From Nitrospinota bacterium (GTDB lineage: Bacteria > UBA8248): 64,000 bases of DNA. A program made the translations under genes and the position numbers. Shown here piece after piece: positions 39,375-41,569 of this stretch. Below the pieces are notes generated by a model. It was not told where the DNA came from. It worked only from the letters and a program-made list of their open reading frames with translations, and ran no database searches. The stretch is from contig JAYGFR010000103.1 in NCBI GenBank assembly GCA_046581755.1, positions 1 to 64,000 on the forward strand. Reading direction: 5' to 3'. Each line of letters starts with the position of its first letter. The first letter of the stretch is position 1.

Positions 39375-40265
39375 CTAACAGAGCATGAATTCTCGTAACA
39401 GAGTGTGAATTCCCGGCGAAACGTCCAGGATGCCGGGGGATTCCCCGGTGGTGGGCCATTTTGATAACCCTTTACCCCACAACAAGATAGGGACTTTATT
39501 GGTTGTGTGGGATGAAATGCTCATATCCTCGATATTGCCGTGGTCGCTGCTGAGGACAAATGTGTCCCGGGCCGGGTCGAGTTCCGCCACGGCGGCACCC
39601 AGGAAGCGGTTCAGCGGCCCGAGAACCTCCAGCGCATCCTCGAATGTCCCTCGGTGACCGGCTATATCTGTCTGAAAAAACTCATATACGAGCAAATCGC
39701 GCGCCCTGGTCATCCGGCCGAGCCGGGCGCCCGCCTCCTCGGGCGAGATTTCCTCGATCTCCAGGCCGGATTCAATGAGGTAACGGTTGGTGAATTCCCG
39801 GTAGACGGCCTCGCCGCGCCGAAGGTGTTCCAGGCGCTTGAGCGGAATCCCCGAGCTCTCGGCCATCACGGTCGTCACCGAGCGGTGGCGGGTTCTCCCG
39901 CGTGAAAAAAAGGCGGGCGTGTAGGCGTTGGCGAAATCCACGTGCGCTCCCCGCTCGCGGGCTTTTCGAAGCAGGCCATCGCGCGCGATGAGCTCCCGGA
40001 GCGCGGCGTTCGGATAGCCCTGCAGGTGGTCCCCCACCAGCGCCGGGGCGTTCCGGCCCGTAAAGAGGGAAGCGCCTCCGGTCGCGCTCTGCGGAGTGCC
40101 GGGCACACCGAGACAGGCATCGGCGGAGATCAGACCAAAGCCCGCCGGGAGGGGGGCGTTTCCGCCGAGGCCGGAGAGCGGCCCCTCATCGAGCGCGGCG
40201 AGCGGGTTGTGCGGCCCCGGGGGGGCGAGCCCCATCCCATCGACGAAAACGAAAAGGATCGCCAA
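39375..40265 (-). CDS. Metalloenzyme (phosphoglycerate mutase / alkaline phosphatase superfamily)
   Basis: FVFVDGMG, PQSATG, TDIAGH, SSDHGNIED, HTTNKVP. Confidence 0.85.
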   Translation of the reverse strand: MAILFVFVDGMGLAPPGPHNPLAALDEGPLSGLGGNAPLPAGFGLISADACLGVPGTPQSATGGASLFTGRNAPALVGDHLQGYPNAALRELIARDGLLRKARERGAHVDFANAYTPAFFSRGRTRHRSVTTVMAESSGIPLKRLEHLRRGEAVYREFTNRYLIESGLEIEEISPEEAGARLGRMTRARDLLVYEFFQTDIAGHRGTFEDALEVLGPLNRFLGAAVAELDPARDTFVLSSDHGNIEDMSISSHTTNKVPILLWGKGLSKWPTTGESPGILDVSPGIHTLLREFMLC

Positions 40266-40266
40266 C

Positions 40267-41283
40267 TTAGAGCGTTCGGCCCGCGGCCTTCGCGAAGGGA
40301 GCGAGGTCTTTCATAAGCTGCGCGAAATTCTTGGGCTTGAGCGACTGGGGCCCATCCGACATGGCGGAGGCGGGGTCGGGATGAATCTCGATCATGAGCC
40401 CGTCCGCGCCCACGGCGACGGCGGCCTTCGACAGAGCAGGCACGAACCGCCAGACCCCCGCGGCGTGGCTCGGGTCCACCATCACCGGAAGATGGGTCTG
40501 CTCCTTCAATACGGGCACCGCGCTGATGTCGAGCGTATTGCGCAGCGCCGTCTCGAAGGTCCGGATGCCCCGTTCGCAGAGGATCACGTTGGGATTCCCC
40601 TGGCTCATGACGTATTCGGCCGACATGAGATATTCCTCGATCGTGGTGGAAAGGCCGCGCTTGAGGAAAATCGCTTTTTTCAGCTTCCCCACCTTTTTCA
40701 GCAGGGAAAAATTTTGCACGTTCCGCGCCCCGATCTGGAGAATGTCGGCATAGTCCGCGACCAGGTCGATATCCTCGGTGTCCATCACCTCGGTCTGGAT
40801 GGGCAGGCTGGTCCGGTCGCGCGCCTCGGCCAGGAGCTTGAGCCCCTCCTCGGCCATTCCCTGAAAACTGTAGGGAGAGGTCCGGGGCTTGAAGGCGCCA
40901 CCCCGGAGCACATGCCCGCCGCCGGCCTTGACCGCATCGGCCGAGGCGAAAATCTGCTCCCGGCTCTCGACCGAACAAGGCCCCGCCACGACGACGAGTT
41001 GGGGGCCGCCGAACTTGACGCCGTTCACGTCTACCACAGTGCGCTCGGGGCGCCCCTCGTTGCTCGCCAGTTGATAGGGCTTCAAAACGGGCATGACGTT
41101 CTCCACGCCCGCCAGCACCCTCAGCGCCTCCTCCATGTTCTTGCCCCGCTCATCGCCCAGGGCGGCGATCACGGTGCGCTCGACCCCGCGCATGACGTGC
41201 TCGGTGCAGCCCAGCTCCTTGACCCGTTTGATGGCCCCCTCGATTTCTTTCTCGGTGGCCCTTTCTTTCATTACGACAATCAT
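40267..41283 (-). CDS. aroF: DAHP synthase type I-beta with N-terminal regulatory domain
   Basis: [54 protein letters not shown]. Confidence 0.96.
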
Positions 41284-41315: not shown

Positions 41316-41347
41316 AAAAAAAATCGCCACGGGCCGGGCCCCGTGGC
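41316..41347 (-). terminator. Attenuator terminator upstream of aroF
   Basis: GCCACGGG-GCCCGG-CCCGTGGC-GA-T8 on the minus strand, about 30 nt before the aroF start. Confidence 0.85.
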
Positions 41348-41410
41348 TGATTGAATAATTTGCGTCGCCGGGGCGGATCGGCATGTCCCCCCGCCGCCGC
41401 CCGGGGTGGA

Positions 41411-41500
41411 TCAACCGGAGCCGGCGCGCGGGCGGACGGGGGTAAAGCCGAAATAGAATCGCCCCCTCCACCATCCAGCCTGAACCGGCATCTCGCGCAT
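41411..41500 (-). CDS. Aromatic-rich attenuation leader peptide (29 aa)
   Basis: MREMPVQAGWWRGRFYFGFTPVRPRAGSG*, located between the promoter and the terminator upstream of aroF. Confidence 0.8.
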   Translation of the reverse strand: MREMPVQAGWWRGRFYFGFTPVRPRAGSG

Positions 41501-41540
41501 GACCCAAAACCCCTTCAAAAACCGTCCGAAACGAGGCTGA

Positions 41541-41569
41541 AACCTACCTCCGCCCGCCCCGCCCGTCAA
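41541..41569 (-). promoter_or_regulatory. sigma70-type promoter of the aroF leader
   Basis: TTGACG-N17-TAGGTT, 40 nt upstream of the leader ATG. Confidence 0.65.

What the first reader, a model, noticed from the sequence alone, without database searches (positions are those of the whole stretch)
41316..41569. Leader-peptide attenuator on DAHP synthase that could sense Trp, Phe and Tyr together
Seen on the minus strand, in order: promoter TTGACG-N17-TAGGTT; a 29-codon ORF containing WWRGRFYFGF (2 Trp, 3 Phe, 1 Tyr in 10 codons); a GC stem with T8 just before aroF. Hand pairing gives the classic geometry. Segment 1 (CCCCCGTCCGCCCG, right after the control codons) pairs with segment 2 (CGGGCGGCGGCGGGGGG, after the stop). 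Alternatively CCCCGGGC pairs with GCCACGGGG, the terminator 5' arm, forming an antiterminator. Known: trp and phe attenuators typically read one aromatic amino acid, and DAHP synthase is the shared entry step. Inference: this is a three-input attenuator that gene callers would miss.
Basis: partly seen in the sequence, partly recalled or inferred. Interest (0 to 1): 0.8.

Follow-up and report, generated by a model that had tools for sequence, protein, structure and literature searches.

The report
Phe-centred leader attenuator before DAHP synthase
A 29-codon mini-gene rich in aromatic-amino-acid codons and a transcription-stop hairpin sit just before the first enzyme of aromatic amino-acid synthesis and recur across this uncultured bacterial class; they likely form a ribosome-stalling switch that mainly senses phenylalanine, with tyrosine and tryptophan as possible extra inputs, a kind of control already described in other bacteria.

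Summary
The element is real. Promoter-like hexamers, the 29-codon ORF (WWRGRFYFGF) and the stem+T8 lie where stated, before a type I-beta DAHP synthase. A leader ORF plus terminator recurs in 46 of 51 genomes of the class (relatives labelled Nitrospinota/Tectomicrobia) and before 0 of 4 second copies. The terminator covaries. Two corrections. (2) Inputs: Phe is the invariant control codon (46 of 46); Tyr occurs in 35, Trp in 12, all three in 8. Trp codons lie in the modelled read-through zone and are enriched per genus, so three-input sensing is possible here but untested, and trpE has its own Trp leader. Precedents: C. glutamicum aroR-aroF (Phe-Tyr-Phe; Phe-responsive, not Tyr-responsive) and Acholeplasma uORFC-13-1. 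This scan has noted the same design on other DNA (362 findings, at least 329 genomes; unchecked). Verdict: new member of a known kind; no functional data.

The parts
41541..41569 (-). Sigma70-type promoter candidate: -35 TTGACG (41569-41564), 17-nt spacer, -10 TAGGTT (41546-41541); start site inferred near 41534
   Evidence: Sequence; pattern found in 37 of 46 leaders; below the threshold of the consensus scan
41510..41516 (-). Weak Shine-Dalgarno candidate for the leader ORF (GAAGGGG, 9 nt before ATG)
   Evidence: Sequence; purine-rich motifs before most relatives' leader starts
41411..41500 (-). Leader ORF, 29 codons + TGA; an in-frame second ATG at 41491
   Evidence: in-frame start and stop in 46 of 46 leaders of 17-34 codons; aromatic codons per 11 codons 4.9 in frame vs 1.2 and 2.5 in the other frames
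41444..41473 (-). Control-codon block W10 W11 R G R F15 Y16 F17 G F19; F19 invariant, F/Y at the Y16 position in 44 of 46, Trp at the W11 position in 8 of 46
   Evidence: Position table; genus-weighted counts
41420..41443 (-).
   Evidence: 10-bp core paired in 94.1% of cells; -36.4 kcal/mol hairpin
41385..41403 (-).
41366..41382 (-).
41399..41406 (-).
41316..41347 (-). Intrinsic terminator: arm E 41347-41340, loop, arm F 41333-41326, GA, T8 41323-41316
   Evidence: 8 pairs formed in 98.6% of cells, two pairs switch on both sides in 17 and 19 of 46 sequences
40267..41283 (-). DAHP synthase, type I-beta with N-terminal ferredoxin-like regulatory domain (338 aa); SD AAGGAG at 41297-41292; the only DAHP synthase found in this genome
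   Evidence: PF00793 + PF18152; NF006421, TIGR01361 above cut-off; second PF00793 match is a 33%-identity hit read as KDO8P synthase; no type II found (genome 96.5% complete)
39375..40265 (-). Metalloenzyme-superfamily gene starting 1 nt after the aroF stop; probably co-transcribed and so under the same control (inferred)
   Evidence: PF01676; same neighbour in 9 of 12 loci inspected

Best explanation
The element is likely a ribosome-coupled transcription attenuator in which ribosome stalling, mainly at Phe codons, would let transcription continue into the DAHP synthase gene, through a predicted five-segment RNA relay. Shown by sequence comparison: the ORF, its frame, an invariant Phe, the B:C hairpin and the E:F terminator are conserved across the class. 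Inferred from folding models: when charged tRNA is short the ribosome waits on the aromatic codons upstream of segment B; B pairs with C, D stays free and captures terminator arm E, and polymerase reads through. When tRNA is plentiful the ribosome runs through B to the stop; C pairs with D, E is free to pair with F, and transcription ends at the U run near 41316. Phe is the main input; Tyr16 and Trp10/11 lie in the zone where a stall would also favour read-through, so they may add secondary inputs in this species.
For: Leader + terminator in 46 of 51 class genomes, 0 of 4 second aroF copies. F at the last control position in 46 of 46, at least 3 Phe in 42 of 46; Phe 14.9% of leader codons vs 3.86% background. 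Genus-weighted 12-codon window: F 44.9 vs 6.5 expected, Y 11.7 vs 4.1, W 10.2 vs 2.0 (genera are related, so not independent). Covariation of B:C and E:F. Window model: D:E occupancy 0.64-0.75 for A-site codons 8-17 at all three ribosome covers, 0.00-0.01 at codons 21-22. Across relatives D:E above 0.5 in 43-45 of 46 with the ribosome on control codons; terminator probability higher at the stop than on the control codons in 45 of 46 (transcript 3 nt short of the full stem) and 43 of 46 (full stem). Consensus folds of family f4 (6 sequences) give B:C + D:E without F and C:D + E:F without B; the 17 non-g8 order members give the same with a weaker C:D. D changes with E: genus g8 D pairs with g8 E at -12.6 but with the other f1-type E at -6.9.
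Against: No experiment: translation, termination and starvation response are untested. The equilibrium switch is incomplete: with the ribosome at the stop D:E still exceeds 0.5 in 27-34 of 46; only 12-14 of 46 show both terminator probability below 0.5 on control codons and above 0.5 at the stop; with the full stem the window's terminator wins (0.99) at almost every ribosome position, so the model depends on folding kinetics. Shuffling B or D in the window itself changed little (0.12 to 0.11 and 0.25), and the window's single duplexes do not beat shuffles (D:E p 0.095, C:D p 0.58). Consensus folds of all 46 and of g8 did not recover D:E (the alignment is off register there). D:E uses different registers in different genera. 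When pairing across the ribosome was allowed, stalls at F17 and F19 mostly lost D:E. F19 counts as a control codon only if the ribosome covers about 6 nt past the A site.
Confidence: 0.72

Rival explanations
1. Same attenuator, but truly three-input: starvation for Trp, Tyr or Phe alone each gives clear read-through in this species.
For: W10, W11, F15, Y16, F17 all fall in the modelled read-through zone. Trp is in the control window in 7 of 14 genera, 10.2 vs 2.0 expected, at the same position in 4 genera, and in both sister families (WGGWYFYF, WGWFSWYF). An upstream protector helix that could explain the TGG codons as RNA structure is not conserved in the Trp-bearing genera. Mixed aromatic leaders also precede DAHP synthase genes in other phyla (L088, L092, L096, L128, L132, L138).
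Against: Trp absent from the control window in 35 of 46 genomes, including one of the same genus, 0 of 23 in g8 and 0 of 6 in f4, although trpA is found in 49 of 51 genomes. trpE has its own Trp leader in 28 of 30 loci. A single Tyr codon had no effect in C. glutamicum aroR (review passage); here there is also one Tyr codon.
Confidence: 0.3
2. Classic four-segment geometry: segment 1:2 protector, CCCCGGGC:E antiterminator, stall masks segment 1.
For: The arm pairs with E at -16.9 kcal/mol in the window, p 0.015, and forms at 0.62-0.69 when the ribosome is modelled a few codons before the stop.
Against: Not conserved (9 of 46); occupancy 0.00 on control codons; shuffling it matters in 1 of 46; most aromatic codons lie too far upstream to mask segment 1.
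Confidence: 0.06
3. The conserved peptide (F-G-F-x-x-V-R-P-R-A) acts as an arrest peptide sensing a free aromatic amino acid or chorismate-pathway metabolite in the ribosome tunnel, in the manner of TnaC, and not tRNA charging.
For: V-R-[PL]-R-A is nearly invariant in 40 leaders of the order, and G is conserved between the Phe codons in 43 of 46.
Against: Those codons are segment B, whose conservation is explained by pairing with C; family f4 keeps the same nucleotides after the stop codon, untranslated; Phe, Tyr and Trp replace one another at the upstream positions.
Confidence: 0.07
4. A protein- or ligand-controlled terminator, or a plain terminator of upstream transcription, with a chance ORF.
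For: 1 other of 65 comparable short ORFs in the genome has as many aromatic codons; U-rich codons could reflect an unpaired linker; TTC/TTT usage is very uniform at two positions.
Against: Frame, start and stop kept in 46 of 46 across length changes; frame-specific aromatic excess; promoter motif upstream of the ORF; no Rfam family.
Confidence: 0.05

Closest known systems
Corynebacterium glutamicum aroR-aroF attenuator (Neshat et al. 2014; not held; seen only as passages in PMC11802643 and PMC4046766)
   Same: Leader peptide upstream of a DAHP synthase gene with a Phe-Tyr-Phe motif (here F15-Y16-F17); read-through by ribosome stalling under Phe limitation.
   Different: Other phylum; this leader adds a fourth conserved Phe position and, in this genome, two Trp codons. 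I could not compare RNA structures. aroR was tested (Phe yes, Tyr no); this one was not.
uORFC-13-1 motif of Acholeplasma (Brewer et al. 2021, PMC8632094, passages)
   Same: Predicted promoter, RBS, uORF with Phe codon(s) and intrinsic terminator exclusively upstream of aroF.
   Different: Described with at least one Phe codon in a U run; 24 sequences in another phylum; prediction only. No sequence comparison was made here.
E. coli pheL-pheA and trpL attenuators (PMC3082878 Figure 1 legend; PMC11802643 passage)
   Same: Leader ORF with control codons, alternative antiterminator and terminator hairpins, U run.
   Different: There, four segments (1:2, 2:3, 3:4) and the stalled ribosome frees segment 2. 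Here five segments are predicted (B:C, C:D, D:E, E:F), the stall lies upstream of all of them, and no conserved upstream protector was found. No Rfam leader family matches.
Salmonella/E. coli his attenuator (general mechanism in PMC3896937 passage; six-segment A-F layout recalled, from no call)
   Same: A chain of mutually exclusive hairpins longer than four segments relays ribosome position to the terminator.
   Different: The first segment of the his layout has no conserved counterpart here (13 of 46 beat shuffles); different amino acid, no sequence likeness tested.

Membership tests
Leader-peptide (ribosome-mediated) transcription attenuators | Short ORF in the 5' leader with start, stop and ribosome-binding site | tested here: met
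   SD in this genome is weak
Leader-peptide (ribosome-mediated) transcription attenuators | Control codons for the pathway's end products, conserved in frame | tested here: met
   downstream gene DAHP synthase
Leader-peptide (ribosome-mediated) transcription attenuators | Intrinsic terminator between ORF and gene | tested here: met
   (covarying stem); family f4 U runs are weaker
Leader-peptide (ribosome-mediated) transcription attenuators | Antiterminator mutually exclusive with the terminator, dependent on ribosome position | tested here: inconclusive
   D:E predicted and direction of switch right in 43-45 of 46, but switch incomplete at equilibrium
Leader-peptide (ribosome-mediated) transcription attenuators | ORF translated, termination at the U run, read-through on amino-acid limitation | not testable with these tools
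   Only assembled contigs of RNA runs were available
Four-segment trpL/pheL geometry | Stalled ribosome masks segment 1 and frees segment 2 to pair with terminator arm 3 | tested here: not met
   Segment 2 arm does not pair with E on control codons; an extra segment D does
Six-segment his-type geometry | Conserved upstream segment pairing with B | tested here: not met
   Beats shuffles in 13 of 46, in none of the 15 non-g8 family members listed
Rfam leader families (Phe, Trp, His leaders and all others) | Covariance-model score at gathering threshold | tested here: not met
   0 hits in the window; best E 0.47, unrelated sRNA model
aroR-type DAHP synthase leaders | Phe/Tyr leader directly upstream of a DAHP synthase gene | tested here: met
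aroR-type DAHP synthase leaders | Sequence or structural homology to C. glutamicum aroR | not tested
   The primary paper is not held and the aroR sequence was not fetched

The most novel reading that the evidence does not exclude
A true three-input sensor: starvation for Trp, Tyr or Phe each opens the shikimate pathway through a five-segment relay with no protector helix, so that an untranslated leader defaults to read-through (the opposite of trp superattenuation), and the class is a natural series in which lineages retuned the inputs by gaining or losing Trp and Tyr codons on a fixed RNA scaffold.
Probability: 0.22. Interest if true: 0.55.

Novelty: new member of a known kind. Interest (0 to 1): 0.33.

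Why it matters
It extends classical attenuation to an uncultured, mostly marine class and shows how the genome's single DAHP synthase is likely controlled at transcription, with a separate Trp leader on trpE. The 46 leaders give ready-made natural variants (Phe only, Phe+Tyr, Phe+Trp, all three) on one RNA scaffold, which makes the question of how many amino acids one leader can read directly testable in a laboratory host. The kind of device is known, so the surprise is limited.

Tried and rejected
Rfam: nothing at gathering score; five chance-level hits. NCBIfam: no family for the leader peptide. Consensus promoter scan: no call. Six-segment his-type idea: rejected, upstream A:B helix not conserved. 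Idea that Trp loss follows loss of Trp synthesis: rejected, trpA in 49 of 51, trpE in 48 of 51, prephenate dehydratase in 51 of 51 genomes. Default state without a ribosome: undecided, D:E 0.74-0.75 with pair span up to 80 nt but 0.02-0.05 with span 100-150. The B:C column is faulty once the ribosome has passed B (indexing) and was not used there; the g3 window was mis-anchored and was redone; one search stopped with an error and was redone. RNA data: 15 runs listed, none with half of the words; 4 laid, all contigs. One RNA contig (run X1, depth about 5) covers 41522-41295, beginning 12 nt downstream of the predicted start site and crossing the terminator; one contig in one study shows neither ends nor level, so it is not counted as evidence. 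Tree: quick tree only, no clade test, L059 left out (broken gene); Trp-bearing leaders sit in both sister families and several f1 genera, which suggests but does not show that Trp is ancestral. Literature: 9 searches found no report for this lineage and no tested three-input aromatic attenuator; most subscription papers are not searched, and comparative-genomics surveys of attenuators that I recall (Vitreschak 2004; Lopatovskaya 2010) were not seen. PMC545781 passages held nothing relevant. No supplements were read; those of PMC8632094 may list further aroF leaders.

Full report
Observation. On the minus strand the window holds, in order, TTGACG-N17-TAGGTT (41569-41541), an ORF from ATG 41500 to TGA 41411 with W10 W11 F15 Y16 F17 F19, a GC stem at 41347-41326 followed by GA and T8, and the start of a 338-aa gene at 41283. 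The gene is a type I-beta DAHP synthase with an N-terminal ferredoxin-like regulatory domain (PF00793 + PF18152; NF006421 and TIGR01361 above cut-off; best full-length PDB relatives 4grs, 1rzm, 1vr6). It is the only DAHP synthase found in the genome (the second PF00793 match, 33% identical, is read as KDO8P synthase by inference). Taken alone the features are weak: the promoter is under the scan's threshold, the leader folds no better than shuffles (z -1.09), and 1 other of 65 comparable short ORFs has 6 aromatic codons in 10.

Conservation. Named relatives are labelled Nitrospinota, Nitrospinaceae or Ca. Tectomicrobia metagenome bins. I searched the 51 genomes of the class, took the regions upstream of the gene and screened them. 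A leader ORF with aromatic codons and a terminator is present in 46 of 51. It was not found in the 4 genomes of the AT-rich, 2.0-2.2 Mb genus g4, nor in G027, which keeps only a terminator. It was not found before any of 4 second copies of the gene. The promoter pattern occurs in 37 of 46. On a 46-sequence alignment the 10-pair B:C core and the 8-pair terminator form standard pairs in 96.1% of cells; two terminator pairs switch on both sides in 17 and 19 sequences; slid controls give 37-52%. These changes follow lineages, so they are few events; half the sample (23) is one genus.

Which codons matter. Aligned on segment B, the last Phe is invariant (46 of 46), the two positions upstream of the Gly are F/Y in 44 and F in 38 of 46. 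Tyr occurs in 35 leaders, Trp in 12, all three in 8. Over all leaders Trp is 1.6% of codons, near the 1.19% background, but that is dominated by genus g8; weighting the 14 genera equally, the 12 codons ending at the last Phe hold 44.9 Phe, 11.7 Tyr and 10.2 Trp against 6.5, 4.1 and 2.0 expected, with Trp in 7 of 14 genera. So Phe is the fixed input and Trp a lineage-variable one. Its loss does not follow loss of the pathway. A separate leader with at least two Trp codons precedes trpE in 28 of 30 loci examined (30 of 48 genomes with a match).

Geometry. The conserved pieces are B (ORF tail, 41443-41420), C (41403-41385), D (41382-41366), E and F (terminator arms). Local hairpins in the window: B:C -36.4, C:D -19.4, D:E -12.6, E:F -16.8 kcal/mol. 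Folding the RNA downstream of a ribosome placed on each codon, with 6, 9 or 12 nt covered past the A site and the transcript ending before F, gives D:E occupancy of 0.64-0.75 for codons 8-17 and 0.00-0.01 for codons 21-22; at the stop E is mostly free for covers 6 and 9. W10, W11, F15, Y16 and F17 lie in the read-through zone; F19 is at its edge. Terminator probability is higher at the stop than on control codons in 45 of 46 and 43 of 46 for two transcript lengths. Subgroup consensus folds recover the two states cleanly in family f4 and partly in the 17 non-g8 order members. In f4 the ORF stops just where B begins, so the same logic holds with B untranslated.

Against this model: the switch is incomplete at equilibrium (D:E above 0.5 at the stop in 27-34 of 46; a clean two-state pattern in 12-14 of 46); the full terminator wins at nearly every position in the window, so kinetics must decide; single helices of the GC-rich window do not beat shuffles; all-46 and g8 consensus folds miss D:E; allowing pairing across the ribosome weakens the effect at F17 and F19. 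An upstream protector helix can form in the window (-14.7) but is not conserved, and the ribosome-free default is undecided.

Mechanism. Shown: conserved ORF, codons, B:C and E:F. Inferred: stalling upstream of B gives B:C, then D:E, then read-through; translation through B gives C:D, then E:F, then termination. Confidence 0.72 for this Phe-centred five-segment attenuator; about 0.9 that it is a leader-peptide attenuator of some geometry; about 0.3 that all three amino acids act (this overlaps with the main model).

Known systems. C. glutamicum aroR carries Phe-Tyr-Phe before aroF and responds to Phe but not Tyr (PMC11802643 and PMC4046766, passages; primary paper not held). An aroF uORF motif is predicted in Acholeplasma (PMC8632094, passages), and a Shewanella aroF leader is listed as a Tyr-tRNA attenuator (PMC2659441, passages). 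pheL uses four segments (PMC3082878, passages). Nine searches found no report for this lineage or a tested three-input case. Earlier notes of this scan describe aromatic leaders before DAHP synthase in cyanobacteria and archaea (362 findings, at least 329 genomes; unchecked); none matched this sequence. My own screen of 80 loci also showed mixed aromatic leaders outside the class in L088, L092, L096, L128, L132 and L138, while most other distant loci had none.

Verdict. Interest 0.33.

Noticed in passing
G000:C107, about 20650-20396 minus strand (L150); loci L140-L169: A separate Trp leader (W-P-W or W-W-W codons, terminator with U run) precedes trpE in 28 of 30 loci. In this genome trpE heads a run trpE-trpG-trpD-trpC-ORF-prephenate dehydratase-aminotransferase-prephenate dehydrogenase-cmk-rpsA (names other than trpE and the dehydratase read from sequence by recall). 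Its ORF tail resembles segment B and appears to pair directly with the terminator 5' arm, a shorter form of the same logic; several g1/g6/g7 copies also carry a Phe codon.
   Followed up: partly
L013, L015, L022, L024 (genus g4): Four small (2.0-2.2 Mb) genomes with 26-29% GC upstream regions have no leader or strong terminator before aroF, though nested among leader-bearing genera in the quick tree: likely loss with genome reduction.
   Followed up: partly
L050 (G027:C6) versus L051 (G028:C1): G027 keeps promoter and terminator but lacks the ORF and segments B-D, as if deleted between the look-alike C and E segments; could be an assembly collapse.
   Followed up: no
L046, L047, L048, L054: Second DAHP synthase copies in four genomes have no leader; L054 lies just downstream of the prephenate dehydratase gene in the trpE region of G026.
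   Followed up: partly
L088, L092, L096, L128, L132, L138: Mixed aromatic leaders with terminator-like hairpins before DAHP synthase in records labelled Ca. Tectomicrobia, Syntrophaceae, an unnamed bacterium, Gemmatimonadaceae (two) and Bryobacteraceae; most hold Trp, Tyr and Phe together.
   Followed up: no
G000:C214:26385 minus strand: Another short ORF with 6 aromatic codons in 10 before a hairpin-U run and a gene that looks like lgt (name recalled from its N-terminal motif); treated as background, conservation not checked.
   Followed up: no
window 39375-40265 (-): A phosphoglycerate-mutase-like metalloenzyme gene abuts aroF (1-nt gap) and is the conserved neighbour across the order; its function and reason for co-regulation are unknown.
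   Followed up: partly
L059 (G022:C78): aroF is split into two matches in this 67%-complete genome while the leader is intact; probably a sequence error.
   Followed up: no
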